Assembly (NCBI GenBank): GCA_009914755.4
Contig: CP068257.2
Span: 12,320,001-12,384,000 of the forward strand
Direction of reading: 5' to 3'
DNA from: the human T2T-CHM13v2.0 reference genome, Homo sapiens
Length of the DNA: 64,000 nt
Shown here: one piece after another, positions 439 through 42,173 of the stretch
Numbering within the stretch: the first letter of the stretch is position 1
Layout: every line of letters starts with the position of its first letter
The notes under the pieces: generated by a model
The model's input: only the letters and a program-made list of their open reading frames with translations
Database searches by the model: none
Told to the model about the DNA's origin: nothing
Position numbers and translations under genes: made by a program

Positions 439-2261
439 TAACAAAAACATTTTAATTAGGTAAAAGACACAATTATACCTACTTTGCAGAATGGCTTAAA
501 GAGTAGGTCACATTTTAATACTTCTGACATTGGAATGCCACTTATATTGTTATAACTACAATTGGTAGCATTTTTAAAATTATCTTATTGATATATAAAA
601 TAGCGGGGCATCACACAATCCATGAGACCTTACATTAAGTAGAATATGGTATACTCAGCAGGTCTAGGGCAGTTCTAGGCATATAACTGGCATGTAAATA
701 CATTTTAGTTCTTAAAGGTACTATGGGGATAGAGCACTGAAATAACAATAATGCATTTTTTAAACAAATTAATTCCTTGATTTTCAAACAAACTGAAGCC
801 AAAGGAAACTCATGATTCAAATGAATACATACGGCTCATTTTATTCAATATTTATACTTACAGAATATATGCAAATAAGACTTTCCAATGATTAATATTA
901 GTATTTAAGACTGATAAACTTTTGAATGGGCAGTTAAAGGTTATCTTCTACTATTTTCTAACTTCAGAAATGCTTTTGTTTGAAAGGTGGGAGATAAAGT
1001 TTCAAGGAGATTAAGTCCCAATATTCCTATTTTAAATCTCTCAGCTTGTGCAGGCAGGGCAGGTAAACATGAAGTTTTTAAGGATAGAAGGGTCCTGAGA
1101 GATAGTAGAATATGTCTGCTACATAACAGGTACTCAGGTTATGTTCGATGAATAAATGGAATGAAAGAATGGATAAATACAGTTGGGGAGTTCAATATTT
1201 TTAAATAACTCCTATAAAGCAATATTTTTGCAATAGTAATTATCTATATGTTATTTTTATTTTTAAAGAATACAATTAAAATGAAATGATTAATCTATCA
1301 TTGTTTGCATAAATTGAATGAATATATAAGAAAAACATATGTACATAATAAAATATATAGGTAATAAAATCTGGAAACAGATAAAAACATTCCCTTTTTA
1401 CTTCTGAAGAGGCTAAAAGTTCAAAGAAGATAACAATACACACAATAATGATAAAAATAGAAAGTGAGAAATTATTTTTAATAATGTAAGATTCATATTC
1501 CTCTCTTCCTGAGGATTATTCCTTTATTAATAAACTTTACTAGAAGTTTTGTACATGCTCACTGCAGCAATCACAGATAAGAAAAAGGAAAAGAACTTTA
1601 CTTAAAATACAAATGCTCAGAAATTACAAATTTTATATTTTGTACATATTTTTTGCTAAAACAAGACCATAGTATGTTTGTGTGTATGTATAATTTAATT
1701 GATTTTTTTCCTCACTAGCTATAACAAAATACATTTTCGCACATCAATATACTTCTGTATCTATTGCCACCTTCAATGGTCACATATTATTCCATCTTAT
1801 GGATGCAACTGAAATTTATTTATAGGATCCATTCTATGGGTTCTTTTTAAAATAAGTGCTGTGAAAAATAAAGTGCATGTATCTTTATTTACTAAGGGTG
1901 TTTTAGTATAATGGAATTGATGGGTAAAGGGCATACATATTTTTTAAATGTAGTACTTACCACCAAATTATCTATTTGAAAAGTAATCAGCAACTTAAAC
2001 TTTAAACAGGAGTATAAAACATCCTCACAAATATTGTGGATAGAAAACTGTTTCATTCCTCTTTTAATTTAAATTCTTATACCAGAAATGCGAAGGACTT
2101 TTTGCTATGTACACAAATAACTTGCAGATCTGGAAAAAAGTACTTTGCCCAATTTTAAAGTTTTTGATGATTAGATTTGAAAGAATTCCCTGTAAAATGA
2201 AAATGTACTTTTCATCTAATGTGTATATATACATACAACTTTTCATCTAATGTGTATATAT

Positions 2262-2704
<443 letters not shown>

Positions 2705-3769
2705 TCATCTGAATATATATATATAATATAGTTAATATTTTTCAAGTAAGCTCTCTTTTATTTTTTTTCTGAAACACAGGCAGTTTTAATTTTTAGTTTG
2801 CTAAATCAATCTTCAGAATGCCTGCTTATGAGGTCATTCTTAGGAAGGCTTTTGTCAACATAAAGTGTACCTGTAAAATAAGCGTTTGTGTTTTCTTCCG
2901 GTACTTTACTCATTTTCATATGTAAAAATTTCAATCTGTATTCCATCAGGAACTCATGTTTGTGACATAAAATTTCATTAGTTTTCTTCAAACAGCAGAC
3001 ATTTTTTCGTTAATAATTCATCCTTTCGTACTCATTAATCCTTACATATATCTTACATAATTTCAGTGTTTCTGGGTTGCCTATTCTGTTCTATGCGTTT
3101 GTCTTTTCAGCTGTTAGTAAACAATTAATTGTAGAAATTAATAGCACATTTTGATATCTAGAGGAACAAGTGTTTTTTCACTCCATTATGAAATTTTTTT
3201 AAATGTCATCACAGTAGTGAAAGACAGCAGGTGTCATACAAAAATGTTAAAACCTTGATATTTTCATTCGGTCTATGTAAAATTGATAAACACAGAAAGA
3301 GCTCACATTTTGAGGAAAATGTGCCTTCCCATTCAAGAACACAGAACCCACCTCCCACTTCCAAGTTTCTCTCTAAGAACCTTCAGTAAAGAACCTACCT
3401 ACACAGGGGGATACGGATGTAAAACGGACAGTTTTATCTGAGAACTTTTCGCCTACTGAAAATAACTCACGGTATTTTTGACAGGGGAATGAGTTCTCTC
3501 ATTAGGCACCTCCTATAATGTATATAAACCATGTTTTAAACGTGTACGTTAAAATTAACAACACTATATGCTTAACTTTGTGAGTTAAATCACTCAAATT
3601 CTCCACCAACTGCTCCAGCCAGGGAATTATGAGGGATGGAAAACAGCTGAGGGTCCGTTTGGCTCCGCCGCTCAGAGGGTGCCCGGCGACCTCCAAGGCC
3701 CCCGTCCCAGGGGCTGCCGGAAAGCCGGACCTGGGGACCCCCTGCCACCCCGGGCTGAGCCCCCGCTAC

Positions 3770-3972
3770 CTGTGCTGCTTGTCCAGGGCGTCCAGGTCTC
3801 CGCTCCTGCGCGCCAGACAGCGCTCCATCTCCGCGGCGTCGCCCTTGACAGCTGCCTTGTGGATCTTCTGCAGTTCCGAGTACCGGATTCGGTACCCGGA
3901 ACCCGTGTACAGGTGGTCTATGGTGCCCAGGACCGTCTGGCCCCTGTGGCTCCTGAAGCCGAACAACTTCAT
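3770..3972 (-). CDS. ANKRD20A-family: First coding exon of an ANKRD20A-family (ankyrin repeat domain 20) gene or pseudogene paralog; the rest of the gene lies left of the window
   Basis: The minus-strand ORF translates as [68 protein letters not shown]. From memory this closely matches the ANKRD20A N-terminus ([68 protein letters not shown]). The Kozak context is caccATGa. The exon ends at CACAG|GTAGCG, a splice donor at the exon 1/2 boundary expected for this family (DKQHR|TALHL). The amino-acid differences suggest a divergent paralog or pseudogene copy. Confidence 0.8.
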
Positions 3973-4480
3973 GGTGGTGACTTCTCAGACTCCCAACCAA
4001 CTGCTCTTGAGAGGAGGCAGCTCCCTGTCACCTTTTCACCTCCCCGCCCCTGCCCCCGCCGACCCAGCCCCAAATCCCCTATCCAACCCCAAATCCGCAA
4101 TCCAACCCCCAATCGGCGATCCCAAATCTATTATCTAATCCAAAATCCGCGATCCAGCCCGGTCCACCACAGCCTTCAGCAGCGACACTCGCAGCCTCCG
4201 ACCTCTCAGACCGAGTGAGCCTCGCAAAGCCTTTGGGCGCGCGCCTGCACCGCGGTGGCCGCCCGGCTCCCGGAAGTCGCTCGGAGGCGGCACGCACTGG
4301 CAGGTGGGGCTGCAGCTGCGAGAGGGGGCGGGCCTGGGAACCACCGCGGGTGTGCGGGCCTTGCCATTCTCAAGATTCCTGCGGAAACGCTGTGCGCTGG
4401 CTGCGCTCCAGGAGCAGGAGCAGGAGGAGGTCGCCCTCTAGAGTCTGGAGTCTGGGGAGAGGAGGAAGGCTCCTTCTTTG
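3973..4480 (-). promoter_or_regulatory. CpG-island promoter and 5-prime UTR of the ANKRD20A-like gene
   Basis: Very high GC with dense CpG immediately upstream (in minus-strand sense) of the ATG at 3972. Contains short CCAAATCC-type direct repeats at ~4060-4170. No TATA box seen. The TSS is not mapped. Confidence 0.55.
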
Positions 4481-4489
4481 TAGGCCACT

Positions 4490-5725
4490 GGTGTTGCTGA
4501 AACCTCTGCCGCCACCTGCAGGGCACCCCCTGATAGCGCCCCTAACCCGCCGCCAGCTATTGGACCCGGGATGGCGCCCCTAACACCCTCCCCTCGCCGC
4601 TGCAGTGTAGAAACCCAATAGCGTCCCGAACCCGTCCCCGCCTCAGACGTTGCAGCACCAGATAACTCCCCCAACCTGCCCCCTGCCGTGGGCCATGCAG
4701 CCACGGATTGGACCCCCAACCAACTCCCTCGCCGCTGGCAGTGACGCCCCAGAAAGCGCTGCAACCTGATCCCCGCCGTGAATAGTGCAGCCACGGATCC
4801 TTAAGGCCCCCAACCCGCTCCCCACGATGGGCAGTGCCCTCCCAGATAGCGGATAGCACTCCCAACCATCCCCCAGCCGCGGGGTATGATGCCCTGGATA
4901 GCGCACCCAACCCGCACCCCCCGCCCCGTGGACAGCTTAGCCCCCGACAGCTCCCCTAACCCGTATGCCACTACCGAGAATATGGTCCCGATAGCGCACC
5001 AAACCTGACTCCCGCCACAGGCAGTGCAGCAGCTGATAGCTCCCCTAACTCGCTCCCACTGACCACAGTACAGCCCCCTAATGATGCACACAACCCACCA
5101 CACCTCCCCACCTGCCACCGGTGGGGTATCGCCCCCAAACTGCCCCTTGCCGCTGGCAGTGTAGCCCCCAATAGCGCACCCAACGCCCCCCTCTATCATG
5201 AGTAGTCTGGCCCGCGATAGGGCCTGAAACCACCCCCTCCAATCACCTCCCTGTACCCCCCTTTCCCGCCCCCCCCCCACCTGCAGTGTACCACCGGATA
5301 CTGCCCCTAACCTATCCCCTGCGGGGGGCATTGCAGCCCCAGATAGCGCCCCCAACAAGTCCCCCGCCGCGGGCGGTGCAGCCCCCAAACCACCCCCCCA
5401 CCCCACTATGGGCAATGAAGCCAGACCAGTCAGCACCCCGACCAGTCCCCCCACCCCGGCGCCGCCGGCAGTGTAACCACAGTAGCGGCCCTAACCCGCC
5501 CCCTGTCGCGGGCAGTGTAGCACCCAATAGGGCCCCCAACCAGCCCTACTGCTGCTGGCAGTACAGCCCAGGATAGTGCCCCCAACCTGCCCCCCCCCCC
5601 CCCCCGCTGCTGCGGGCAGCGCAGCCCGGGATAGCACACCTAAAGTAGTGACGCCCGGAATAACACCCCTACCGGCCCCCGGCCGCGGGCAATGTAGCCC
5701 CGGATAGCGCACCTACCCAATCGCC
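4490..5725. repeat. GC-rich minisatellite A, ~28 units of ~37-46 bp (approx. GCAGTGTAGCCCCCGATAGCGCCCCTAACCCGCCCCCTGCCGCGG on plus); C-rich on plus, G-rich on minus
   Basis: Degenerate units are visible by eye, e.g. gcagtgtaaccacagtagcggccctaacccgccccctgtcgcgg followed by gcagtgtagcacccaatagggcccccaaccagccctactgctgctg. Both strands give long artefactual ORFs. Confidence 0.85.
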
Positions 5726-6147
5726 TTTCTACGCTCTGGCCGGCTGCAGTGTCCGCTGCTGCCACCCACAGCAGCGAGGCGAGCCAGCGAGGCCAGCCGC
5801 AGTCCCACAGACTCTAGCCTCCAGCCTGTGGTAGGTGCCTCCTCTTTCCCTTCCTGTATCCAGGCAAGGAGCAGCTCTCGCTGCCAGCCGCCTGTCTCCA
5901 TCACCGCCACACACTATGCAGAGGCAAGCCCTGGTGCCACAGGATCCAGCCTCCAGCCCCAGCGTGTGGCGGGGGACTCCGCTTTCGCCTTCTTTAAGGT
6001 GCGAACGGAGGGGTTGGGAACGCTGAGGCACAACAGCCTGCAATGGCGCAACTCCCCCTTAGCATGCTTTATATACTGAGGTTATGCAAGCCAGGTTCCT
6101 GGACTTCATGTTCTGATTGGATGAGAGAAAACCGCTAGGCCTGCTAG

Positions 6148-6400
6148 TTGGGGGCACTATCCCAGACTGTATTGCCGGCAGCAGTGAGGTGGGTTAAGGG
6201 TGCTATCCAGGGCTGCACTGCTCGGGGGTGCGGGTGGGGGGGGTTTGGGTTTAGGCACTATGGGGTGCTGCAATGCCCACGGTGCAGGGAGAGGGGGAAG
6301 TTTGGGTGTGTTGGGTGCGCTATGGGGTGGGGGGGCTACACTGCTGGTGGCAGGGGGCGGGGTTGGTTGGGGACCGTATCAGGGGCTGCACTGATTGCTT
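6148..6400. repeat. Minisatellite A, inverted copy (G-rich on plus)
   Basis: Reverse complement of the 4490-5725 units: gggcactatcccagactgtattgccggcagcagtgaggtgggttaagggtgctatccagggctgcactgc... Confidence 0.8.
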
Positions 6401-7685
6401 TAGCTAGGATTTCCAATACTATGTTAAGTAACAGTGGTGACAGTGGGCATCCTTATCATGTTCCAGATCTTAGAGGAAAAGCTTTCCATTTTCCCCCATT
6501 CCATATGATTCTAGCTGTGAGTCTCTCTCTTGTGGTTTTTATTATGTTGCAGTTATGTTTCTTCTGTACTTGGTTTTTTGAGGATTTATAACATGAAGGA
6601 ATGCTGAATTTCATCAAATGCTTTTTCAGTTTCAGTTGACATAATCATACTGTTTTGTCGTTTATTTGGTTGATATGATGTATCACATTGAGTGTTGAAT
6701 GACCCTTGCATCCCAGGGATACATCCTACTTGATCCTGATGAATTATCTTTTTAATGTATTGCTGAATTTGATTTGCTGGTATTTTGTTGAGGATGTTTG
6801 CACCAATATTAGAGATACTGGCCTGTAGTTTCCTTCTTTGATGTCTTTGTCTGATTTTGGTATGAGGGTAATAATGGCCCCACAGAATAAGTTTGGAAGT
6901 ATTCCCTGCTGTTTTTCAAAATAGTTTGAGTAGGATTGGTACTAGGTCTGTAAATGTGTGGTGTGAAACCATCAGCAGTGAAGCCATTGGTTCCTGGGCT
7001 TTTTTTTACTGGGAGACTTTTTCTGATGGCTTCGATCTCATTACTTGTTACCGATCTGTTCTGGTCTTGGATGTTTTCACTGTTCAAACTAGGTAGGTTG
7101 TATGCGTCTAGGATTTCTACTAGGCTTTCTAATTTATTGGCATATAATAGCCAGTTAAGATCCTTTGAATTTCTGAAGTATCAGTTGTAATGTCTCCTAT
7201 TTTATTTTTTGATTTTATTTATTTGAATCTTCTCTCTTTTTTCTTAGGCAGCCTGGCTAAAAGTTTGTCAGTTTTGTGTAGCTTTCCAGAAAACCAACTT
7301 TTTGTTTAATTTTGTGTATTTTTTTAATTTCAACTTTATTTCTGCTATGATCTTTATTATTTCTTTTCTTATTTTGGGTTTAGTTTGTTCTTACTTTACT
7401 AGTTCTTTAAGATGTATGGTTTATTTGAAGTTTTTCTTCTGTTTGGATGGTAGGCACTTATAGCTATGAAACTCTGCCTTTGTACTGTTTTTGGCATATC
7501 AAAAGTTTTGGTATATTGTGTCTTCATTACCATTTGTTTCATGAAATTTTTCAATTTCCATCTTATATCTTCATTGACCCACTAGTCATTCATTCAGGAG
7601 TGTATTATTTAACTTCCATGTGACTGTATGGTTTCCAAAATTCTTCTTCTTATTGATACCTAGTTTTATTCTTTTGTAGTCAAAG
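6400..7685 (-). mobile_element. LINE-1 fragment, antisense, internal ORF2 (RT region through towards the endonuclease region), inserted within inverted minisatellite A
   Basis: Colinear with the antisense ORF2 of the L1PA at 14262-19690. For example ccaatactatgttaagtaacagtggtgacagtgggcatcc is similar to ccaacactatgttgaataggagtggtgagagagggcatcc, and ...tcattcaggagtgtattatttaacttccatgtg is similar to tcattcaggagcaggttgttcagtttccatgtag. It is more diverged, so older. Confidence 0.8.
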
Positions 7686-7861
7686 AAGATGACCATGGAG
7701 ACAGCAGCGTGGTCGGAGTGGTAGCAGGCAGCCATCAGCAAGAGCTGCTCCGTGCCAGGCTGCTGGAGGCTAGAGCCTGTGGCCCAGTGGCTTGCCTCAC
7801 TGTGGTTGGTGGTGGTGGTGACAGAGACTGCAGCATGACCAGAGTGATAGGATAGGGGCCA

Positions 7862-8200
7862 TCGGGGCTGCACTTTTCACAGTGTGGGGTGGGTTGGGGG
7901 CACTATCTAGGGTGTCACTGCCTGCACTGGGGGTACTGGTTGGTAGCATTATATGGGGCTGCACTGCCCATGGTGGGGACCATGTTATGGGTGCTCTCTG
8001 GGACTGCAATTCCCATAGAGGAGGACAGGTTAGGGCACTATCGGGTATACGCTGCTGGTGGCGTTGGGGGAGTGGAGGTGGGGGGCGCTATTGAGGGCAG
8101 GATTAGCCATGGAGGGGGGCAAGTTGGGTACTGTTGGGGGCTGCGCTGCTGGCGACGATCAGCAGAGTTGGCAGCGACAGTGGTGGCATCCAAGGAAGGA
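7862..8200. repeat. Minisatellite A, second inverted copy
   Basis: ggggctgcacttttcacagtgtggggtgggttgggggcactatctagggtgtcactgcctgcactggg..., the same unit family in reverse orientation. Confidence 0.8.
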
Positions 8201-8974
8201 GCGGTTCTCCTCTCCCTGGACTCCACACTCCAGAGGGCAACCTACTCTTGCTCATACTGGAGCGCGGCAGAGGCAGTGTTTCTGTGGAAATCCTGAGCAT
8301 GGCAGAGCCCCTACACCCACCGTGGTTACTGGGCCCATGCACTCTGGGTCTGTGCCACGGAGACTGCCTGGCACCCCCCAGTATGGAGTAGCAGACACCA
8401 CTGGGGACAGGTCCTTGTACATGGAGGCATCCGGAACAGGAAGTGGCACCTGGGTGCAGAGGGTTGGCTGGGTCTGAGTTTCTGCTGCTCCTGCTCCCCG
8501 AGGAGTGCAGCCCGAGTGGGCCCAGCAGTTCCTGTGGAGTGAGGAGCCAGGCACTATGGTGTCTCCAGCACCCACCCCAGGCCCCAGTTTCTGGCCAGCT
8601 TGGGCCAAAAGGAGAGTCTGGACTTTGAAGGGTGGGTGTGAGTGCCTTCACTGAAACTGGCCCCTGCCACCCAGTGGCTGGCATGACAAAGTGAGGCTCT
8701 GACGCTACCACCCCTTGCATCTTCCTCTAGGATTTTCTGGCTTTGCCCTCCCAGCTGCTCCGTGCCAGGAGGAGGAGGAGACACCTGGAGCCTGCAACAC
8801 CACAGCTCGCTTCTCTGTGGGCTGGTGGTGGCAATGCAGACTGCAGCATCCTGGAGCAGTAGGAGGGCAGGCGGCTGCGGCCAGGGTGGGGGCAGGCCTA
8901 CAGCAGTGGCCAGGTTGCAGCAGTGGCCAGGTGGTAGGAGCCTTGTAGGGAGGGCCGATGCATTCACAATGGGC

Positions 8975-11921
8975 CTGGCTATGCCCTGCCCGTGCTGTGG
9001 ACCTGGCCCTGTACTGCCCTGCCCAGCCTTGCCCTGGACCTGCCCTACCATTACCTGGACTGTCTCAGCCCTGCTCTGCTCTGGTCCCACCCTGGCCCTG
9101 TCTTGGCCCTGTGCTACCCTGTCCCTGCTCTGGTCCTGCCCTTGCACTTGCCCTTCCCTGGCTCAGGCCCTGGCTCCATCTCTGCCCTGGACCTTCCCTG
9201 AATCTGTGCTGACCCAGCTTTGGCTCTGGCCCTGCCTCCTGTCCTGACCCTGGCCCTGCCATGGCACTGGCCCTGCCAATGGTCATGGTCCTGGTCCTGT
9301 CCTGGCCCTGATTTGTCCCAGCCCTGCCTTGGCCTGTCCCTGCCCTGGCCCCACCATGGCCCTGCCTGTTCTGCCCTCTCCTGGCACTGACCTTGCCCTG
9401 TCATGGCCCGGCGGTGCCATTGCCCTGCCTTACACTGCCCTGGTTGTGCCCTGGCCCTGCCTGACGCTGGCCGCTCCCTGGACCTGCCCTGACCTTGCCG
9501 TGGCTTTTGCCCTGCCCTCGCTATGGCCTGGCTCTGGTCCTGTCCTGGCCCAGCCTCCTGGCCCTGATCCTGGTCCTGCCATATCCCTGGCTCTGCCCTT
9601 ATCCAGGTCCTGCCCTTGCCTGTGCCCTGGCCCTGGCCTGGAACCTGATCCTGCCAAGGACCTGCCCTGACTCTGCCATGGCCCTGGCCCTGCTCTGCCT
9701 TGCTCCTGGCCCTGACCCAGACCCTTTCCTGGTTCTGTCCTGGCCCTGGCCTTTCCCTGGCCCTGAGCTGGCAGTAGTCTGCCCCTGGTCTTGGCACCAA
9801 CCTGCCCTGCCGTGCTCTGGCTGTGTCATCACCCTGCCCTGGCCCTGCCCTCACCCTACTCTGGCTTTGACCCTGCCCTGGCCCTACCTTGGCTCTCACC
9901 CTCGTCTTGGCTACGGCCTGCTCTGGACCTGGCCCTAGCCCAGACCTGGCCCTGACCCTGGCCTTTGTCCTGCCATATCCCTGGCCCTGGCCCTGGCCCT
10001 GGCCCTGAAGTGACTAGACCCTGTTTTGGCCTGTCCCTGCTCTGCCCCTACCATTGCCTTGCCCTGTTCTGCCTTGTCCTGGCACTGACCCGGCCATGCC
10101 ATTGCCCTGCCTTACCCTGCCTTGGCCGTGCCCTGGCTCGGTTCTGGCCCCGGCCCCGCCCTGAACATGCCCTGACACTGCCTCAGCTTTGGCACCAGCC
10201 TGGCTCTGCCTTGGCATTGGCCCTGCTCTCTCTATGGACCGGCTCTGGTCCTGTCCTGCACTGGCCATACCATGCCTTGCCCTGACTCAGCCCTGACTCA
10301 GCCCTGGCTCAGCTCTGGCCTTGGTGTTGCCCATGGTCCTGCCGTGTTTCTTGCCCTGTCCCTACCCTGGCCCTGGCCCTGACCCTTACCCTGGTCTGGC
10401 CCTGCTCGTGCCCTAACGCAGACCCTGGACCTGTCCTGGCCCTGGCCCTTCCTGGCTTGAGACCTTACCCTGGTTCTGCCCTGGCCCTGACCCTGTCCTG
10501 ACCCTGAAATACTGGCCCTACACTGGTCTTGCACTGCTCTGGTCCTTGCCCTGACTCTGGCCCTGTCACTATCCTAGCCCCAGCCCTGTCGCTGGTCTTA
10601 CCATGGCCCAGACCCTGCCTTGGCCCTACCCTGACCCTGTCCTGGACTCCGGCTGTGCCAAGAACCTGAACTGTCCTTGCCCTTCTTTTGCTCCTGCCCT
10701 GAACCTGGTCCTGCCCAGGCCATGGCCATGGCCCTGTCCCTGCCCTGGTCTTGGCACTGGCCTGGCCCTGCCTTGGCCCTATGCTTTCATGGACCTGTCC
10801 TGCGTGCCCTGGCCCTGCCTTGGCCCTAGCCTGGCTTTGACCCTGCCCTGGCCCTACCTTGGCCTTCACCCTAGCCTTGCCTGAGCCCTGTCTTGTACCT
10901 GGCTATAGCACAGACCTGGCTGTGGCCCTGGCCCTGCCGTGGCCCTGTCCCAGACCCTGGCCCTGCCAGGTACCTGTCCTGGCCCTGGTTCTGCCCTGGC
11001 CCTCCCCTTGCCCTGGCCCCTCCCTGGCCATGCTTTTTCCCTGGTCCTTCCCTGGCCTGCCCTTGCCCTGGCCCCTTTCTGGTCCTGCCATGTTTCTGGC
11101 CCTGCCCTGTCCATGCCCCGGACCTGGCTCTGGCCCTAGACTTCCCTGGCTGTGCCCTGCCATACCCTGGCCTGGTCCTTGCTCTACACTGACCCTGCCC
11201 TGCCTTGGCCCTGTGCTACCCTCACCCTGCCCTGGCCCTCCACTGGCCCTGGCCCTGACCTGGCCCTGTCTTAAGCCCTGGCCCTGCCATGTCCCTGCCC
11301 TGGCCCTGGTTCTGCCCTGCTTCTGGCCCTGGCCTTGGTCCTGTCATGTCCCTGGCTGTGACCTTGCCCGGTTCTACCCTGGCTCTGGCCCTGCCCTGGT
11401 TCTGGTCCTGCCCTGGCCCAGCCCTGACTGGGAACTGTACTACCCTGGCCCTGCCCAGCCCAACACTGCCCAGGCTGGAGCCCTGCCTTGGCCATGCCCA
11501 TGGCCCTGCCCCTGGTCCTGTCGTGGCCCTTACCCTGCCACTGGTCCTACGATAGCCCTGACCCTGACTTGGCCCTGGTCCTGACCTAGCTGTGGCCCTG
11601 CCCTGCTTCTGGCCCTGTCCTGGCCCTGCCATTGCCTTGGCCCTGGCCCTGCCCTGGCTCCTACCTGCCCTGGCCTTTCCTCGGCCCTGTGCTACCCTGG
11701 CCCTGCCATGTTGTGGCCCTGCCTCTGCCTTGGCCCTGCTCTGGGCATGGCCTTAGCATTCGACCTGGCCCTGCCCTGCCCCTGCCCTGGACCTGCCCTA
11801 CCATTACCTGGCCTGTCCCGGCCCCGCCCTGCCCTGGCCCCACCCTGGCCCTATCTTGGCCCTGTGCCACCCTGTCCCTGCCCTGCCCTTGCATTGGCCC
11901 TTCCCTGGCACAGGCCCTGGA
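8975..11921. repeat. GC-rich satellite B, ~3 kb, degenerate 8-12-bp CCCTGGCC / CTGCCCTGGCC-type units (C-rich on plus, GGG-run-rich on minus), with ~0.93-0.98 kb higher-order periodicity
   Basis: Continuous cctggccctgccctggccctg... Near-identical ~100-bp blocks recur at ~9850-9960 and ~10830-10930, and at ~8995-9180 and ~11770-11920. The ORF track shows long GPGQGQ / LALPWP artefact ORFs on both strands. Confidence 0.85.
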
Positions 11922-14240: not shown

Positions 14241-15027
14241 AATTCATATTTAATCTCCTTGTGGTTTTGATTTGCATTTCTCTGATGGCCAGTGATGATG
14301 AGCATTTTTTCATGTGTCTTTTGCCTGCATAAATGTTTCTGTTCATATCCTTTGCCCACTTTTTGATGGCGTTGTTTGATTTTTTCTTGTAAATAATTTG
14401 TTTAAGTTCTTTGTAAATTCTGGATATTAGCCTTTTGTCAGATGGGTAGATTGTAAAAATTCTCTCCCACCCTGTAGGTTGCCTGTTCACTCTGATGGTA
14501 GTTTCTTTTGCTGTGCAGAAGCTCTTTAGTTTAATTAGATCCCATTTGTCAATTTTGGCTTTTGTTGCCATTGCTTTTGATGTTTTAGTCATGAAGTCCT
14601 TGCCCATGCCTATGTCCTGAACAGTATTGCCTAGGTTTTCTTCTAGGGTTTTTATGGTTTTAGGCCTAACATTTAAGTCTTTAATCCATCTTGAATTAAT
14701 TTTTATATAAGGTGTAAGGAAGGGATCCAGTATCAGCTTTCTACATATGGCTAGGTAGGTTTCCCAGCACCATTTATTAAATAGGGAATCCTTTCCTCAT
14801 TTCTTGTTTTTGTCAGGTTTGTCAAAGATCAGATGGTTGTAGATGTGTGGTATTATTTCCTAGGACTCTATTCTGTTCCATTAGTCTGTATCTCTGTTTT
14901 GGTACCAGTACCATGCTGTTTTGGTTACTGCAGAGTTGTAGTATAGTTTGAAGTCAGGTAGCGTGATGCCTCCAGCTTTGTTCTTTTGGCTTAGGATAGT
15001 CTTGGCAATGCGGGCTCTTTTGTGGTT

Positions 15028-16219
<1,192 letters not shown>

Positions 16220-30933: not shown

Positions 30934-31159
30934 GCAAGGCATGGTGGCTCACGCCTGTAATCCCAGCACTTTGGGAGGCTGAGGTGGACAAATCACCTGA
31001 GGTCGGAAGTTCAAGACTAGCGTGACCAACATGGCAAGACCCCGTCTCTACTAAAAATACAAAAATTACCTGGGCATGGTGGCGGGCGCCTGTAATCCCA
31101 GCTACTCAGGAGGCTGAGGCAGGAGAATCGCTTGAACCTGGGAGGCAGAGGTTGCAGTG
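30934..31159 (+). mobile_element. Alu SINE, sense, truncated abruptly at 3-prime (ends ...GGTTGCAGTG) and abutting PPP6R2-homologous coding sequence
   Basis: GGCAAGGCATGGTGGCTCACGCCTGTAATCC...GGGAGGCAGAGGTTGCAGTG, then caccaagtcagaccctgactcacgc... with no poly(A) and no remaining Alu right-arm end. Confidence 0.85.
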
Positions 31160-31270
31160 CACCAAGTCAGACCCTGACTCACGCTACCGCCCCTGCCACC
31201 CCCAGTTGTTTCAGAAGTGCTGCCTGGGGCAGAGGATCCTGGAGGCCTGGGAAGCCAATGACCACACACA
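31160..31270 (+). pseudogene. PPP6R2-like exon (…[22 protein letters not shown]), 5-prime part replaced or abutted by a truncated Alu
   Basis: The sequence ends ACACA|gtaaga. Spliced to the next exon it reads Q-ATGCMRHGN. PPP6R2 has ...[39 protein letters not shown] (recalled). Confidence 0.75.
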
Positions 31271-32258
31271 GTAAGAGCCACTCGGACATGGAGGGACCCA
31301 GCCTGGCCAGTCAGGGATGCAGAAACGCACCTCAGCCGGGCACTGGTGATGCTGCGTGCAGGACTGCATGCTCTGGTGGAGCGCTGGGTGTGCGACACAG
31401 CTCCACACTCTGAGGCTGCCATGCAAGGGGCCCTCCTACTGGGTGGACAGCTGCAAATGCTACTTGGGGAGGGGACACAGGGAGCTGACAGGAAGCAGTC
31501 CCAGCCCCACCAGGCACCTGCTCTGGCCCCTGCCCAGCCTGGCTTGCCTAGGCTTTGCCCTCTTGCGGGTCCCCTGTCCATTCCTGATCTTCCCCCAAGA
31601 ACTCGGGTGCTCTATCAGCACTCGCACATGGGGACGCGTTATTTTGGTCTTTCCGTGTCTTCTGCTTAATGGGTGCTCCCTCTGGTCAGGACACATGTCC
31701 TGCTTATTGTCCTGGACCCAAAGCCATCCCCACCCATTCATTGTCCTGCTGGGAGCTGTCTGGCTCTGGGCGATATGAGGAGGGACTCACTGGAGCTGGG
31801 AGGGGTTTGAATGCAGCTGTGGGGAAGCAGAGGCTCAGCTGGGCTGCACAGCATGGAGGTCCCGCCCGACCCTCCCTGCAGGGTGCTGAGCCTGAGCTTT
31901 GCAGCTGACAGCGTGGGCTCAGCTCCTGCGCTACTGCTGCCACCAGCAGGGCTCAGGCCACACCACGGCCTTTCTGCCTCCGTTTCCCTGTCTGTAAAAT
32001 GGGATGAGAGCAGTGTCTGTCTCCACGTCTGTCTCAGTGGCACTTTTGGTAGTGAGGTTGGGGTGAGCCTGCTTCACGTGGCAGGTGCTGCTCAAACAGA
32101 AGTGTCTTGGAGGCAGGGCCGGGGGCACAGGCTCCGGGCAAGGGCCGGGCTCTTGCTCTGGAGGTGAACCTGGAGGCCTGTGCCACTTGGCTCACCGGGT
32201 CATGGGTCTGGCAAGGTTGGGGCCAGGCGGCCACCCTGATGGTGCCTGTGGCTTTTAG

Positions 32259-32374
32259 GGCGACGGGTTGCATGAGGCATGGGAACATAGGCCACCTCAC
32301 GCAGATCGCCAACGTGCTGGTGCAGAACCTGGAGCAGGGCTCTGTGCAGACGCACATCAGCGAGGTCATCTGAG
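32259..32374 (+). pseudogene. PPP6R2-like exon with an in-frame TGA where the parent has Arg (ISEVI* versus ISEVIR)
   Basis: The acceptor is gcttttag| and the donor TCTGAG|gtgagc. The TGA codon is at 32371-32373. Confidence 0.8.
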
Positions 32375-33659
32375 GTGAGCCCCCCACCCGGTCATCCTTT
32401 TGCTGGTCGTGGGCACCGGGGCTCTGAAGGAGCTGCTGCCCGAGGCTCCCCTCTGCCCGTCAGCAGGTGCTGATTGCACTGACAGTGAAAGACCCCGCAG
32501 CCGTCTCTGTCCTCTCACTTCCCACATCAGATCTGTCCTCAGGGGGACCTGGGTCTCATGTGTCAGTTCTGTTGGGCAGACTTCTGTGGAGACCCTACCA
32601 GGCATCAGCATGTAGCACAAGAGATAGTCCCTGCTGGGGGCAGTTGGTGACTCCGGAGCTGGTGCTCCGAAGCCATTAGCGCTGCCAAGCTCCTTGCAGC
32701 TCATGGAGTCCTGCCTGGGTGTAGGCAGTCCTGGCCGTGTGCCAGCTTTGCTCTGCATTCAGGTGGTTGGAGAGTCTCACATTCTCACTCAGGTGTGAGA
32801 CTTCATAGCACAAGTCTCAGGGAAACAGGTAGCACCCTGTTTCTTAAGAGCACAGTGGGTTAGGTGGACACAGGCACACCACATGTGTGGCAGAGGCGGG
32901 CCCAGCCATGGCCCCTCCTCCCTATACCGGTACAAAGTGAGGAAGCTCTGGATGGTCCTCCCCGCACCCCAGGACCATAGGGTGAGGGGTCTCCTGGGTT
33001 GGGCCCCATTGGCCCCTAGCAAGGTCAGGCCTGCCGGCCGCTGTCACAAATAATAAGAGCAGGGCAAGAGGAGGGCAAAAGAGATGGGTGGAGGTGGAGG
33101 CCAGGGAGGGCTCCCCAGGGCAGGGGTGGTTTAGGGAGGCGAGGGGCAAGCAGGAAGCTCTTGGATCATCCCATACAGTCTCCCGATTGTGAATCCTTCC
33201 GGGGTTCTGACCTCCCCGGAAAAACAGACAGGACACACACCCAGGCCTGCAGGCTGCTGCTGAGTTTGGGCCTGTGAGGCAGGGTGAAGGAAGCTTGCTG
33301 CTTTCTCAGATTCTGTTCCACAGCTTCTGCGTTTCTGGGAGTTCCTCAGAATGGGCTTCCACACCAACAGACTTGGAACTCGGTTGCCCACTGAGGTCTT
33401 GGTAGGGGCAGAAGTGCCCACCACCCTGCCCACAGTTGCTGCACCTCAATCTCACTGTGGCCCCAGGCCCCTCCGGACACGCGACTATGCTGACTCCTTC
33501 CCATCCAGCAAAGCTCCTGCTTCAGGCCCTCAGATGGACTGACCACAGTAGCACCGTCCCATCCTCCTGGACCCAGGATGCACCTGCCAGAGCGCCTGAG
33601 TGCCCTGAGCCATGTGCAAGGGCTCTCCCAGGGCTCACCAGGCTGCACTTTCCTTGTAG

Positions 33660-33745
33660 AGCTCCCTGTGGATTGCCATGGCTGCTAGGAGAGCTTCGTG
33701 GAGGAGACGCTGACGGAGACCAACTGCAGGAACACTGTGGACTTG
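33660..33745 (+). pseudogene. PPP6R2-like exon with an in-frame TAG (CHGC* versus CRGRW) and a mutated donor (TT instead of GT)
   Basis: The acceptor is ccttgtag|. The TAG is at 33686-33688. After GACTTG the expected gtgagg reads ttgagg at 33746. Confidence 0.75.
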
Positions 33746-34313
33746 TTGAGGAGGCTTGGGGCTGCGCCCTCGGCGCCGGCATGGTGCTGGGACGCAGGAG
33801 GCTCGGGGCTGCCCCCTTGGTGCATGCACGGTGCTGGGACACTGTCAGACACTCCTGTCTTTGCCCCGAAGCAGAGGCCAAGAGAGGCACAAGGGCCGCA
33901 CACCTGCCTGCTCCTCTTGGACGCGGGTGCCCGAGCATACCCTGCAAGTGTGCAGTCTGTCCTCCAGGCTGATGCCTGCAACACAGACCCTGTCCTGTGC
34001 CACACCCAGGGCTGGTCTCTGAGGACCTCTGTGCAGAGCTGGTGTTGGCCCCAGGTCCCTTCCCTCCCAGTCCAGGAGCTGTAGCTTGTTGGCAGGGGGC
34101 TCCATATGCCTGAGACCAACCTGCCCCCTGCACATGGATGTTGGGCTGTCACGGGGCCTTGGCCTCACCTGGGCACCTCCTTACACAGCAAGGCCTCCTG
34201 GGCCCAGAGATCTGATGAGTGACATGTTGGGCGGGGTCTGGGAGCCCTGGGCTGGGCAGGGTCTGGGGCGCTGGGCTGGCTCACACACCCACCCCATCTG
34301 GCCTGTGTTTTAG

Positions 34314-34388
34314 GCAAGCACTCACTACCTTCACTCCTGGAGTGAGGACATTGAGGGTGCTTTCCCTAATGAGCTGTCCCTTCAGCAG
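34314..34388 (+). pseudogene. PPP6R2-like exon (ASTHYLHSWSEDIEGAFPNELSLQQ)
   Basis: The acceptor is tgttttag| and the donor CAGCAG|gtgagg. The parent has ...STHHLHSSSEDEDIEGAFPNELSLQQ, so one codon is missing here. Confidence 0.8.
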
Positions 34389-34847
34389 GTGAGGGCGTGG
34401 CCGGCCCCTGCACCCTGCCGGGCCCTTCCTGGCACCTGTGTGCTCTGTGCTTGGTCCTCCAGACAAGTCTCTGATGGCATCTCACTAGCAAAAGGGAGAG
34501 GGGGCTCATCTCGGAGCACGTATGGGGTGGGGTGGGTCTGAGGGGAGAACTCCAAAGTCACTCCACCTTGATGAGAGCACTGAGAACACAGCAGATAAAC
34601 TCGAAAGTCAAAGAATATGGGACGTATCTCGGATGTAAGCACAGTGAGCACGCGGCCTGAGTTTGGGTAGAATCGTGAGCCCTGAACAGTCAGAGTTTAC
34701 TGCCCACTTTTGCTGGAGGAGAAGCTCCTGAACAACTAGAGAGACTGTGGTTCCCAAAGAGCAGCCTGTAGGCCTGAGGACTGCTCTATGACCGGCGTCA
34801 GTCCCTGCCTCCCTCCCTCCGTCCCTCCTTCCCTCCTTCCTTCCCAG

Positions 34848-34945
34848 GCCTTCTCTGACTACCAGATCCAGCAGATGACGGCCAACTTTGTGGATCAGTT
34901 TGGCTTCAATGATGAGGAGTTTGCAGACCATGACAACAACATCAA
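34848..34945 (+). pseudogene. PPP6R2-like exon ([32 protein letters not shown])
   Basis: A long polypyrimidine tract then cag|. The donor is ATCAA|gtgagt. Confidence 0.8.
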
Positions 34946-35070
34946 GTGAGTCCACTTGGATGCCCCCTGCACGAGGCACGACTCCCCCTCCTCGCTGCTG
35001 AAGTCCCATGGGGGCAGCTCCCTTAGTCCTTGCCGGGAGATAACAGGTGTTTCCAGTTGCATGAGGGTGC

Positions 35071-35412
35071 TGAGGCCCCCAGTGAGAACCAGGGGAGGAG
35101 CACTGAGGCCTCAGATGAGCACCGGGGGAGGAGCCCTGAGGCCCCAGATGAGCACCAGGGGAGGAGCACTGAGGCCCCAGATGAGCACCGGGGGAGGAGC
35201 GTTGAAGCCCCAGATGAGCACCAGAGGAGGAGAGCTGAGGCCCCAGATGAGCCCCGGGGGAGGAGCTCTGAGGCCCCAGACGAGCACCGGGGGAGGAGCG
35301 CCGAGGCCCCAGATGAGCACCGGGGGAGGAGCGCCGAGGCCCCAGATGAGCAGTGGGGGAGGAGCCCCGAGGCCCCCAGATGAGCAGTGGGCGGGGCAGG
35401 GAGCGCCGAGGC
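35071..35412. repeat. 30-bp minisatellite/VNTR, ~11 copies (GAGGCCCCAGATGAGCACCGGGGGAGGAGC), intronic in the PPP6R2 pseudogene
   Basis: Perfect or near-perfect 30-mers in tandem. They generate the periodic ORF EAPDEHRGRS... in the ORF track. Confidence 0.9.
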
Positions 35413-35432
35413 CATCCCCCTTGCTCTTGCAG

Positions 35433-35490
35433 CGCCCCATTTGACAGGATCGCGGAGATCAACTTCAACATCGACACTGACGAGGACAGT
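35433..35490 (+). pseudogene. PPP6R2-like exon ((N)APFDRIAEINFNIDTDEDS)
   Basis: The acceptor is ctcttgcag| and the donor GACAGT|gtgagc. It is in phase with the preceding exon. Confidence 0.8.
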
Positions 35491-35766
35491 GTGAGCGAGC
35501 GGGGCTGTGCGGGGTCATGCAGGCACCCTGTTCCCAGGCAGCTCAGGCCGCGCCCATGGCTCGGTCTGTGGTGGGCCTGTGCGGTGGGGCTGGGAGAGGC
35601 CCCTCTGTGGAGCTAGGAACAGTCGCTTTTCTTGACCCTCCCCATCATGCCCTCCAGCCCATGGCGCCCACATCCTGAACTAAGCCCCTCTGGGAGCCCT
35701 GTGGGGAGAGCGCCTCCTGTCTCCCCCAGACCCTCTGGAAACTGACCTTGGCGTTTTACTCTGCAG

Positions 35767-35864
35767 CCCAGCGCGGCTCTGAGGCCTGCTGCAGCGACCG
35801 CATCCAGCACTTTGATGAGAACGAGGACATCTCGGAGGACAGCGACACTTGCTGTGCTGCCCAG
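35767..35864 (+). pseudogene. PPP6R2-like exon with an internal frameshift (PSAAL in one frame, then EACCSDRIQHFDENEDISEDSDTCCAAQ in another). Coding homology probably continues past 35864
   Basis: The acceptor is tctgcag|. The two halves match the parent in different frames, so an indel of non-3 length near GCTCTGAGGCCTGC is implied. Confidence 0.65.
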
Positions 35865-37350: not shown

Positions 37351-37570
37351 TTCACACACCCCATGGATGTTGGCAGCTTGTCAGGACCCTCGAGCTGTCC
37401 CCTGTTATTCTCTGAGGGGCTGAGGGGCACTGCTTGGGCCTCCCTCCTGGAGCAGCCCCATGTTCCTGTCAACCTCTGTGGGGCTCCCAGTGGGGGGTGC
37501 GCTGCCTCCCCTTTGCCTGCAGCACCCCAGACAGGCCTGCCCTCACCTGGCCACTGTGTCTCTCACCCAG

Positions 37571-37728: not shown

Positions 37729-37831
37729 GTAACAAATGCATTGGCAGGAGGGGGCCGTGTCAGGAAGTGCCTTCCAGGGTCAGGAGGTGCCCGTCCTCCG
37801 GGACTGACCCTGTCCTCGTCCTTGTCTGTAG

Positions 37832-40476: not shown

Positions 40477-41147
<671 letters not shown>

Positions 41148-41685: not shown

Positions 41686-42173
<488 letters not shown>

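What the first reader, a model, noticed from the sequence alone, without database searches (positions are those of the whole stretch)
8975..11921. 3-kb CCCTGGCC-type satellite with ~1-kb higher-order repeat and strong strand asymmetry (G-runs on the minus strand)
The array is built from 8-12-bp C-rich units. Long-range self-similarity is visible, with near-identical ~100-bp stretches at ~9850 and ~10830 and at ~9000-9180 and ~11770-11920. This implies about three higher-order units of ~0.93-0.98 kb. Together with minisatellite A, the minus strand carries dense GGG runs (CAGGGCCAGGGCAGGGCCAGG...). That is the sense strand of the adjacent ANKRD20A-like gene and lies upstream of its promoter, over ~7.5 kb. 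Such tracts are predicted to form G-quadruplexes on one strand and i-motifs on the other, and to be replication or recombination hotspots.
Basis: partly seen in the sequence, partly recalled or inferred. Interest (0 to 1): 0.55.

Follow-up and report, generated by a model that had tools for sequence, protein, structure and literature searches.

The report
Old CAGGG repeat at duplication edge
This 3-kb stretch is a decayed tandem repeat of the 5-6-base unit CAGGG/CCAGGG, a type of GC-rich repeat already described at the edges of duplicated DNA near human centromeres; it has no ~1-kb higher-order period, and it is an ordinary, known kind of sequence.

Summary
The array at 8975-11921 is real and strongly strand-asymmetric: 236 C3+ runs against 2 G3+ runs on the + strand. 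Its base unit is 5-6 bp (CCCTG/GCCCTG), giving periods of 5, 6, 11 and 17 bp. It is heavily degenerate: only about 25% of units are exact.

There is no ~0.95-kb higher-order repeat. Identity at lag 970 is 0.352, against a background of 0.309±0.027. There are instead four old patch duplications at offsets of 2752, 970, ~700 and 321 bp.

G-quadruplex potential on the minus strand is moderate: mean G4Hunter score -0.66, with 13 canonical motifs.

The gene is the human C21orf81/ANKRD20A11P 5' end. The C-rich skew is not continuous over 7.5 kb; it reverses at 6000-9000.

Sixty-four human-derived metagenome contigs carry a paralogous copy. It is collinear with window 6147-10987 (88-90% identity in the array, as in the flanking GC-rich DNA). 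It then differs by a 3.5-kb indel inside the array and has an unrelated distal flank. The array therefore ends a duplicated segment, as described for the "CAGGG repeats" of Eichler et al. 1999. It evolves mostly by point substitution, with modest unit-scale slippage.

Verdict: known kind, low interest.

The parts
8975..11921 (-). Degenerate (CAGGG/CCAGGG)n array. The G-rich strand is the minus strand; the + strand reads CCCTG/GCCCTG.
   Evidence: TRF periods are 5, 6, 11, 17 and 28 with 57-62% matches. Autocorrelation peaks lie at lags 11, 6, 17 and 5. Of 427 TG-delimited units, 59 are GCCCTG and 46 are CCCTG, and exact CCCTG covers 29% of bases; CpG observed/expected is 0.10.
9016..9173 (.). 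Left copy of the end-to-end direct repeat (partner 11768-11920, offset 2752).
   Evidence: blastn gives 87% identity over 159 bp at 173 bits; the null maximum is 85 bits. Identity is 90.8% excluding gaps.
11768..11920 (.). Right copy of the end-to-end direct repeat. It is the start of a second large unit, cut off at 11921.
   Evidence: Paralogue contig L040 follows window 10955-11839 at 93% identity and then continues as 9186-9498-like sequence.
9835..9963 (.). Patch duplication, copy 1 (partner 10805-10933, offset 970).
   Evidence: 82% identity over 129 bp at 116 bits. The same pair exists in paralogue L070 at offset 1005.
10805..10933 (.). Patch duplication, copy 2.
9286..9547 (.). Patch duplication, copy 1 (partner 9982-10258, offset about 696).
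   Evidence: Three collinear HSPs score 81, 62 and 60 bits.
9982..10258 (.). Patch duplication, copy 2.
10923..10998 (.). Patch duplication, copy 1 (partner 11244-11319, offset 321).
   Evidence: 88% identity over 76 bp at 95 bits. The same pair exists in L070 at offset 331.
11244..11319 (.). Patch duplication, copy 2.
10955..10987 (.). Junction of a ~3.5-kb indel relative to the paralogue family.
   Evidence: The main collinear alignment ends at 10985-10987 in 35 contigs that continue beyond it. Homology resumes about 3.5 kb later in the contigs, at window 10955.
11918..11921 (.). Distal breakpoint: the array ends abruptly against unrelated AT-rich, interspersed-repeat sequence.
   Evidence: No CCCTG-dense DNA occurs anywhere else in the window. 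The paralogues have a different distal flank.
6147..8974 (.). Proximal part of the same duplicated segment. It holds a G-rich ~45-bp minisatellite (6147-6400, 7850-8160), a LINE-1 fragment (6420-7680), an inverted copy of promoter-proximal DNA (7863-8345) and a ~95-bp motif (8753-8849).
   Evidence: Twelve paralogue contigs begin homology exactly at 6147. Segment identities are 86-92%. ORF 6809-7087(-) matches LINE-1 ORF2p residues 441-481 at E = 2.6e-6. The inverted copy scores 145 against a null of 12.
3772..3972 (-). Context only: exon 1 of the ANKRD20A-family gene (C21orf81/ANKRD20A11P).
   Evidence: Translation; 100% identity to nr 'C21orf81 protein [Homo sapiens]'.

Best explanation
The feature is a copy of the GC-rich 'CAGGG repeat' type of pericentromeric interspersed minisatellite, with no sign of a function. 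The proposed history is as follows.

1. A 5-6-bp unit (CAGGG/CCAGGG) was amplified long ago by slippage or unequal exchange into a multi-kb array. (Inferred.)
2. A few unequal exchanges then copied patches of 75-260 bp at irregular distances and produced at least one large (~2.75-kb) second unit. (The patches and their age are shown; the mechanism is inferred.)
3. Amplification largely stopped and the array decayed by point mutation. (Shown: the units are degenerate, and the array aligns position by position with its paralogues.)
4. The array was then carried, with ~2.8 kb of adjoining DNA (window 6147-8974), as part of a segmental duplication that exists in several copies in the human genome. 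(Shown.)
5. In the window's copy the array is 3.5 kb shorter internally and is cut off at 11921, where paralogy ends. The array therefore marks the distal edge of a duplicated segment that happens to abut the ANKRD20A11P promoter region. (The differences are shown; whether they are deletions or insertions is not resolved.)

The G-rich minus strand has moderate predicted G-quadruplex potential. That could have favoured breakage or template switching at such arrays. This last step is inference and was not tested here.
For: UNIT AND DECAY. TRF periods are 5, 6, 11 and 17 with 57-62% matches, and autocorrelation agrees. Only 105 of 427 units are exact consensus.

PATCH DUPLICATIONS. They exceed the shuffle and Markov nulls. 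Two of them also occur in paralogue L070.

MULTI-COPY FAMILY. A 32-mer from the array found 64 contigs, many from records labelled human skin or gut metagenome; the rest carry no such label. All are 82-86% identical to the window. In pairwise comparisons they differ from each other by about 0.5-2.5% in substitutions.

COLLINEARITY AND EDGES. The contigs are collinear with window 6147-10987. They show sharp common breakpoints at 6147 (12 contigs) and at 10985-10987 (35 contigs).

ORDINARY SUBSTITUTION RATE. Identity excluding gaps is 88.6-89.9% in the array. It is 87% in the adjacent GC-rich unique DNA and 92% in the LINE-1 part.

UNRELATED DISTAL FLANK. Beyond the array the paralogue flank matches the window only at Alu elements.

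TRUNCATED SECOND UNIT. Shown by contig L040.

LITERATURE. CAGGG repeats are kb-sized, diverged blocks. They form a single block in macaque and spread to many pericentromeres in great apes (PMC2566985). That paper cites Eichler et al. 1999, Genome Res 9:1048; the citation was verified.

LOCATION. Exon 1 matches human C21orf81. That gene is ANKRD20A11P in proximal 21q; the map position is from my own knowledge.
Against: 1. The primary CAGGG-repeat paper and its sequences could not be read. Homology to the originally described blocks is therefore untested, and its statement that the repeats lie at duplication boundaries is recalled from memory.
2. The window's own locus was not recovered from any collection, so I have no population data for this copy. 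I also cannot show whether DNA distal to 11921 is single-copy.
3. The metagenome contigs are probably collapsed consensus sequences of several paralogues, so copy number and per-locus polymorphism cannot be separated.
4. The direction of the 3.5-kb difference (deletion here or gain in the family) is not polarised.
5. At least one ANKRD20A-side homology ends at about 5772. That is 3.2 kb from the array, next to the other minisatellite, so not every edge in this region is a CAGGG array.
Confidence: 0.8

Rival explanations
1. One reading: a satellite organised into about three higher-order units of 0.93-0.98 kb, homogenised like a classical higher-order repeat array.
For: One 129-bp patch pair lies at offset 970 with 82% identity. 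The two ends of the array resemble each other.
Against: There is no array-wide autocorrelation peak at 0.9-1.0 kb (0.352 at lag 970 against a background of 0.309±0.027). Windowed identity at offset 970 exceeds 0.6 only at 9825-10025. The other significant pairs have offsets of 2752, about 696 and 321 bp. Identities of 82-88% are far below those of homogenised higher-order repeats.
Confidence: 0.03
2. An active, hypervariable G-quadruplex-forming minisatellite, like mouse Ms6-hm (CAGGG)n. On this model it is a present-day replication and recombination hotspot with a high germline length-mutation rate.
For: The motif is the same as in Ms6-hm, whose G-strand forms secondary structure and which mutates at more than 1% (PMC4882425). 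GGGCAGGGCAGGG-CAGGG and GGGSCAGGGCCAGGGCCAGGG are listed among human G4 sequence families (PMC10048163). There are 13 canonical motifs and 19 G4Hunter regions at or beyond 1.2 on the minus strand. Array length varies by tens of bp among family copies (3671-3828 and 1715-1770 bp), against 430-437 bp for a non-repeat control. Indel bases per kb are 5-20 times those of non-repeat DNA.
Against: The units are degenerate: 25% are exact and TRF matches are 57-62%. The mean G4Hunter score of -0.66 is about half that of a perfect array (-1.18 to -1.6). The array aligns position by position with paralogues at the same substitution divergence as flanking DNA. Indel events are only 1.5-2 times those of non-repeat DNA. 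There was no kb-scale variation among 24-31 family copies. No PRDM9 13-mer, no Jeffreys core and no chi sequence is present.
Confidence: 0.07
3. A cis-regulatory or insulator element of ANKRD20A11P, for example a G4 or CTCF cluster or an upstream CpG-island extension.
For: It lies 5-8 kb upstream on the sense strand. The promoter CpG island of C21orf81 shows allele-specific methylation and expression (PMC2812945).
Against: CpG observed/expected is 0.10 in the array, against 0.63-0.66 in the promoter and the proximal minisatellite. There is no match to the CTCF consensus in the whole window. The paralogous arrays are not next to any ANKRD20A 5' end. The langur ANKRD20A-like locus has no such array within 10 kb upstream. 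A LINE-1 fragment and an inverted duplication separate the array from the promoter.
Confidence: 0.05
4. A protein-coding low-complexity (Pro/Gly/Ala-rich) exon or gene.
For: ORFs of up to 261 and 241 amino acids overlap the array.
Against: Long ORFs occur in several frames on both strands, as expected from the low A content. The repeat periods of 5, 11 and 17 bp are not multiples of three. The only protein hits were ORFs called on paralogous contigs. A search with 14 concatenated ORFs from the right-hand 2 kb found nothing.
Confidence: 0.01

Closest known systems
CAGGG repeats: pericentromeric interspersed GC-rich repeats (Eichler, Archidiacono & Rocchi 1999, Genome Res 9:1048; also described in PMC2566985)
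   Same: The array is kb-sized and degenerate and is built on CAGGG. It exists in several diverged copies in the human genome. It lies next to pericentromeric-type duplicated genes (the ANKRD20A family). Paralogy with the other copies ends inside or at the array. The blocks are old: 8-13% divergence between this copy and the main family, depending on the segment.
   Different: Direct sequence homology to the blocks originally described (16p11, 2p11, 10p11, 22q11, Yq11) could not be tested. The proximal edge of this duplicated segment (6147) lies in a different, ~45-bp G-rich minisatellite, not in a CAGGG array.
Mouse hypervariable minisatellite Ms6-hm / Pc-1, (CAGGG)n
   Same: The pentamer motif and the G-rich/C-rich strand asymmetry are the same. 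The G-strand of that repeat is reported to form secondary structure (PMC4882425).
   Different: Ms6-hm is homogeneous and mutates in length at more than 1% per generation. The array here is degenerate, collinear with paralogues at about 89% identity, and varies only by unit-scale indels.
Jeffreys-type GC-rich human minisatellites (core GGGCAGGANG)
   Same: Both are GC-rich and strand-asymmetric. The partial core GGGCAGG occurs 36 times on the minus strand.
   Different: The full core is absent and there is no PRDM9 13-mer. The unit is 5-6 bp, not 10-60 bp. No sign of high turnover was found.
Higher-order-repeat satellites (e.g. alpha satellite)
   Same: It is a tandem array with some long-range self-similarity.
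   Different: It has no regular higher-order period and no homogenised units.

Membership tests
CAGGG pericentromeric interspersed repeats | Tandem array built from a degenerate CAGGG unit, GC-rich, of kb scale | tested here: met
   CCCTG occurs 170 times and GCCCTG 120 times; unit-length modes are 5 and 6 bp; the array is 2.95 kb at 66% GC. TRF reports periods of 5, 6, 11 and 17.
CAGGG pericentromeric interspersed repeats | Interspersed: several diverged copies in the human/hominoid genome | tested here: met
   Sixty-four metagenome contigs, many from records labelled human skin or gut metagenome, carry a paralogous array at 82-86% identity to the window. In pairwise comparisons they differ by 0.5-2.5%. 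Copy number and chromosomal sites are not known.
CAGGG pericentromeric interspersed repeats | Lies at the boundary of a duplicated segment | tested here: met
   Paralogy runs from window 6147 into the array. The distal flanks of the window and of the family are unrelated. Caveat: whether DNA distal to 11921 is itself duplicated elsewhere was not testable. That this feature defines the family is recalled from the 1999 paper, which I could not read.
CAGGG pericentromeric interspersed repeats | Pericentromeric chromosomal location | not testable with these tools
   Inferred only. Exon 1 is 100% identical to human C21orf81, and from my own knowledge that gene, ANKRD20A11P, lies in proximal 21q11. 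No human genome map was available.
CAGGG pericentromeric interspersed repeats | Sequence homology to the blocks originally described | not testable with these tools
   The primary paper and its sequences are not held.
Hypervariable G-rich minisatellite (Ms6-hm / Jeffreys type) | Homogeneous units maintained by rapid turnover, with large length variation | tested here: not met
   TRF matches are 57-62% and 25% of units are exact. The array is collinear with paralogues at 89% identity. Length spread is about 4% or less among 24-31 copies.
Hypervariable G-rich minisatellite (Ms6-hm / Jeffreys type) | Recombination-associated core motif (GGGCAGGANG, or the PRDM9 motif CCNCCNTNNCCNC) | tested here: not met
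   There are no matches to either motif in the array.
Higher-order-repeat satellite | A regular long period with high identity between units | tested here: not met
   There is no autocorrelation peak at 0.9-1.0 kb. The offsets of internal duplications are irregular and their identities are 82-88%.
G-quadruplex-forming sequence | Four or more G3+ runs with short loops, or G4Hunter at or above 1.2-1.5 | tested here: inconclusive
   There are 13 canonical motifs, 19 regions at or beyond 1.2 and 6 at or beyond 1.5, but the mean score is -0.66 and 93% of windows fall below threshold. Actual folding was not tested.

The most novel reading that the evidence does not exclude
The window's copy preserves two 'scars' inside a CAGGG array: a 3.5-kb internal indel whose junction lies in about 30 bp of repeat-unit homology (10955-10987), and a truncation at 11921 where paralogy ends. 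The most novel reading is that these scars are direct footprints of G4-prone arrays acting as preferred sites of fork collapse and template switching. On that reading the arrays both receive and terminate pericentromeric duplications. This locus, together with its paralogue family, could then serve as a natural series for reconstructing that mechanism base by base.
Probability: 0.12. Interest if true: 0.4.

Novelty: already known. Interest (0 to 1): 0.15.

Why it matters
The practical value is in annotation. The array should be read as a decayed CAGGG-type pericentromeric repeat that ends a duplicated segment. It should not be read as a higher-order satellite or as a regulatory element of ANKRD20A11P. 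It gives one more example of GC-rich minisatellites sitting at both edges of a pericentromeric duplicated segment (6147 and 11921). This fits the long-standing idea that such repeats guide where duplications begin and end. It opens no new question, and the human reference and long-read population assemblies could settle the remaining points quickly.

Tried and rejected
1. ~0.95-kb higher-order period. Tested by autocorrelation, windowed identity and self-blastn with two null models; rejected.
2. Coding potential. ORFs occur in several frames on both strands, the periods are not multiples of three, and there are no homologues beyond paralogue ORFs.
3. Motif scans. No CTCF consensus. No PRDM9 13-mer, Jeffreys core or chi sequence.
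4. Rfam scan of the whole window at gathering thresholds: no matches.
5. Old World monkey loci fetched through exon-1 homologues (Mandrillus L001, Trachypithecus L002). Neither has a CCCTG-dense stretch within 10 kb upstream, and homology to the window ends at about 5772. They are probably other paralogues, so they do not date the array.
6. Exact look-ups of the two longest array ORFs: not on record.
7. Search with the concatenated ORFs of the right-hand 2 kb: no hits.
8. Scan of bacterial and archaeal genome contigs for the 32-mer: no matches.
9. Exon-1 relic in the inverted copy: none. The alignment score equals the null.
10. Homology between the window's distal flank and the gene's intron: only Alu elements, plus one ~0.7-0.95-kb segment (14253-15204) shared with the monkey loci.
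11. Pfam scan of flanking ORFs: nothing. LINE-1 identity came instead from a search of PDB sequences.
12. Reading Eichler 1999 and Horvath 2000 directly: neither paper is held.
Full report
**Checking the observation**

The sequence at 8975-11921 is a continuous C-rich, A-poor array on the + strand: C 42%, T 26%, G 24%, A 8%. GC skew is -0.25 to -0.31 and AT skew -0.40 to -0.57 in every 500-bp window. There are 236 runs of three or more C against 2 runs of three or more G.

Tandem Repeats Finder reports overlapping rows with periods of 5, 6, 11, 17 and 28 bp at only 57-62% matches. Autocorrelation peaks at lags 11 (0.508), 6 (0.487), 17 (0.480) and 5 (0.452). I cut the array after every TG, which gave 427 units. 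Their length modes are 5 and 6 bp. GCCCTG (59) and CCCTG (46) are the commonest; the rest are single-base variants such as CCTTG, TCCTG, GTCCTG and CTCTG.

The base unit is therefore CAGGG/CCAGGG read on the minus strand. The stated coordinates are accurate.

**The higher-order claim**

- 9016-9173 against 11768-11920: 87% identity, 173 bits, offset 2752.
- 9835-9963 against 10805-10933: 82% identity, 116 bits, offset 970.

Two further pairs exist:
- 9286-9547 against 9982-10258: three collinear HSPs, offset about 696.
- 10923-10998 against 11244-11319: 88% identity, offset 321.

All four exceed the best scores obtained in 40 unit shuffles (maximum 66 bits). Three of them also exceed the best of 40 order-5 Markov simulations (maximum 85 bits). 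For the pair at offset ~696 the best single HSP (81 bits) does not, and that pair rests on its three collinear HSPs.

There is no regular period. Identity at lag 970 is 0.352, against 0.309±0.027 for lags 100-2000, and the maximum in that range is 0.399 at lag 1971. At offset 970 only about 200 bp exceed 60% identity. The model of 'three units of 0.93-0.98 kb' fails its own test. What exists is a patchwork of old duplications at irregular distances.

**G-quadruplex potential**

On the minus strand the mean G4Hunter score is 0.66 in magnitude. Of 25-nt windows, 7.2% reach 1.2 and 1.3% reach 1.5. This gives 19 regions at or beyond 1.2 and 6 at or beyond 1.5. There are 13 non-overlapping canonical (G3+N1-7)4 motifs, against 3.6±1.7 in mononucleotide shuffles, and 28 if loops of up to 12 nt are allowed.

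A perfect CCCTGGCCCTG array would score -1.18 and a perfect CCCTG array -1.6. About half of the potential has therefore been lost to decay.

The array is about 7 times richer in above-threshold windows than the rest of the window. It is much poorer than the promoter-proximal minisatellite at 4500-5750, where 30% of windows reach 1.2. CAGGG-type motifs are listed among human G4 families (PMC10048163), and the mouse (CAGGG)n minisatellite Ms6-hm is reported to fold (PMC4882425). The prediction is therefore reasonable but moderate, and folding was not tested here.

**Surroundings**

The window is primate DNA: it contains Alu elements, and ORF 6809-7087(-) matches LINE-1 ORF2p. An exon on the minus strand at 3772-3972 encodes MKLFGFRSHRGQTVLG...DKQH, which is 100% identical to nr 'C21orf81 protein [Homo sapiens]'. 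From my own knowledge, C21orf81 is ANKRD20A11P in proximal 21q.

However, the C-rich skew is not continuous. From 6000 to 9000 the GC skew is positive. That interval holds the following:
- G-rich ~45-bp units (6147-6400 and 7850-8160).
- A LINE-1 fragment (6420-7680).
- An old inverted copy of promoter-proximal DNA: 4321-4795 against 8345-7863, 67% identity, score 145 against a null of 12.

The array is CpG-poor (observed/expected 0.10), unlike the promoter and the proximal minisatellite (0.63-0.66).

**Related sequences**

A protein search with the longest array ORF returned two ORFs. Their contigs, L003 and L004, align position by position with window 8835-9913.

A 32-mer invariant in that alignment was then scanned against metagenome contigs. 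It found 64 contigs of up to 13.7 kb. Many come from records labelled human skin or gut metagenome; the others carry no such label. I take them all to be human host contamination. None was found in bacterial or archaeal genomes.

None of the 64 is the window's own locus. All are 82-86% identical to it, counting gaps. In pairwise comparisons they differ from one another by about 5-25 substitutions per kb, depending on the segment. L003 is up to 99.7% identical to one of them. They therefore represent a multi-copy human paralogue family, probably partly collapsed by assembly.

**Anatomy of the paralogy**

Homology with the window starts exactly at 6147 in 12 contigs. It runs collinearly through the G-rich units, the LINE-1 fragment, the inverted copy and the first 2 kb of the array. 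It stops at 10985-10987 in 35 contigs.

The paralogues then carry about 3.5 kb that the window lacks. This extra stretch holds more array, short inverted CAGGG stretches, and a 430-bp AT-rich insert with a partial Alu. Homology resumes at window 10955-11419. The overlap of about 30 bp at the junction consists of repeat-unit homology only.

The paralogue array is thus about 3.7 kb, then a 0.65-kb gap, then about 1.75 kb. Beyond it, the paralogue flank matches the window only at Alu elements.

One contig, L040, follows window 10955-11839 at 93% identity and then continues as 9186-9498-like sequence. So the resemblance between the two ends of the window's array is the start of a second large unit. 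In the window that unit is cut off at 11921.

The patch duplications at offsets 970 and 321 are also present in paralogue L070, at offsets 1005 and 331. They therefore predate the split between the window's copy and the family.

**How the array evolves**

Between the window and the family, identity excluding gaps is:
- 88.6-89.9% in the array.
- 87% in the adjacent GC-rich unique DNA.
- 88-89% in the inverted copy.
- 92% in the LINE-1 part.

Substitution in the array is therefore ordinary. In the L003 alignment, most of the indels between the window and the paralogue are of one or a few units: 4, 5, 11, 12, 12, 12, 24 and 40 bp.

Among family copies, length varies as follows:
- Array block 1: 3671-3828 bp (n = 24).
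- Array block 2: 1715-1770 bp (n = 31; 15 of them are 1747 bp).
- The non-repeat insert, as a control: 430-437 bp (n = 26).

Per kb, mean pairwise indel events number 1.6-2.0 in the array against 0.7-1.0 in non-repeat DNA. Indel bases number 12-26 against 1-3.

This is modest slippage, not hypervariability. No PRDM9 motif, Jeffreys core or chi sequence is present, and there is no CTCF consensus.

**Relation to the gene**

The paralogue contigs show no ANKRD20A promoter or exon in up to 3.4 kb on the gene side of 6147. Human exon-1 paralogues recovered from human metagenomes lose homology with the window upstream of about 4300. A langur ANKRD20A5-like locus (L002) shares the promoter and the proximal minisatellite only up to about 5772, and has no CCCTG-dense DNA within 10 kb upstream.

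The region is therefore a mosaic. An ANKRD20A segment ends near 5772. A different duplicated segment runs from 6147 to 11921. Unrelated DNA lies beyond. The array belongs to the second segment and is next to the gene by juxtaposition.

**Comparison with what is known**

The closest known class is the 'CAGGG repeats' of Eichler, Archidiacono and Rocchi (1999, Genome Res 9:1048). The citation was verified, but the paper itself is not held. My recollection of it is that these GC-rich pericentromeric interspersed repeats lie at the boundaries of duplications and predate the split between hominoids and Old World monkeys.

A secondary source that I could read describes CAGGG repeats as follows. They form a single block on a macaque chromosome. 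[quoted passage not shown] They occur as kb-sized blocks of 1.7 and 5.6 kb that are only 72% identical to each other (PMC2566985).

The array here meets the features I could test: unit, scale, multiple diverged copies, and position at an edge of paralogy. Pericentromeric map position and homology to the original blocks could not be tested. The array does not meet the defining features of a hypervariable minisatellite or of a higher-order-repeat satellite.

**Verdict**

This is a real repeat that was correctly located, but its organisation was misread. It is a decayed CAGGG-type pericentromeric minisatellite that ends a duplicated segment. Its predicted G4 potential is moderate and I found no evidence of function. 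It is a known kind of sequence in a well-studied genome, so its interest is low.

Noticed in passing
window 4321-4795 and 7863-8345: An old inverted duplication. Promoter-proximal DNA and the start of the C-rich minisatellite recur, reverse-complemented, about 3.5 kb upstream (67% identity over 489 bp; score 145 against a shuffle null of 12). No exon-1 relic follows it.
   Followed up: partly
Its autocorrelation z-score is 5.4, with multiples at 90 and 135 bp, and TRF does not call it. It is CpG-rich (observed/expected 0.63) and much more G4-prone than the CAGGG array: 30% of 25-nt windows reach G4Hunter 1.2 or beyond. The proximal edge of the CAGGG-bearing duplicated segment (6147) lies inside its G-rich inverted version.
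   Followed up: partly
window 5892-5957(-), 7743-7836(+), 8753-8849(+): A motif of up to ~95 bp (...GCTGCTCCGTGCCAGG...GGTGGTGG...AGACTGCAGCA...) occurs three times. Each copy lies just before a GC-rich tandem array. Alignment scores are 33-34 against a null of about 10±1.6.
   Followed up: partly
L056:2900-3140 (orientation as fetched; window + strand equivalent), just proximal to the 6147 equivalent: In the paralogue family, the G-rich minisatellite is preceded by tandem units of the type GCGAGGGCGGAGCTGCGTTCTCCTCAGCACAGAC. These look to me like subtelomeric (TAR1 / TelBam3.4-type) repeats. That resemblance is from memory and was not tested.
   Followed up: no
window 31000-42000: An ~11-kb GC-rich block (57-66% GC) in otherwise AT-rich DNA. 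It contains a 33-bp repeat of 9.6 copies (35069-35386, 88% matches) and an 89-bp repeat of 4 copies (37002-37354, 90% matches), plus several canonical G4 motifs on both strands around 32.9-35.6 kb.
   Followed up: no
L001:8010-10409 (Mandrillus leucophaeus KN973055.1): The drill C21orf81-like locus has an inverted duplication. Intron-1 and exon-1 sequence (matching window 2152-3830) lies reverse-complemented immediately upstream of the promoter, and the proximal minisatellite is missing. This could be a real rearrangement or an error in a draft assembly.
   Followed up: no
L002:8187-9668; L006:270-1226; L007:1-906: The langur locus and two human exon-1 paralogues share about 1.4 kb between the proximal minisatellite and the promoter that the window lacks. 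The chr21-type copy therefore has a deletion there, or the others have an insertion.
   Followed up: no
window 14253-15204: This ~0.7-0.95-kb segment is 87.5-91% identical to sequence lying inside intron 1 of both monkey ANKRD20A-like loci (L002 12725-13392 and L001 22345-23029). In the window it lies upstream of the gene, beyond the array. It is either an interspersed repeat or a remnant of another ANKRD20A segment.
   Followed up: partly
window 3600-4500 (promoter / exon 1 CpG island): The C21orf81 first-exon CpG island has been reported to show genotype-linked allele-specific methylation with monoallelic expression in leukocytes (PMC2812945). CpG observed/expected here is 0.66.
   Followed up: no
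L040, first ~60 bases: This metagenome contig begins with sequence that looks to me like a Nextera adapter (reverse complement of CTGTCTCTTATACACATCTGACGCTGCCGACGA). Its right-hand array part is 93% identical to the window while its left part is 85% identical, so it may be a chimera of two paralogues.
   Followed up: no
all 64 metagenome loci L012-L075: The window's own locus was never recovered, although the 32-mer used for the scan is present in it. Only the paralogue family was assembled, at coverages of 1.8-19x. This fits a family with many copies and collapsed assembly, but it leaves the window's exact origin (human chr21 reference or another haplotype or hominid) unverified.
   Followed up: no
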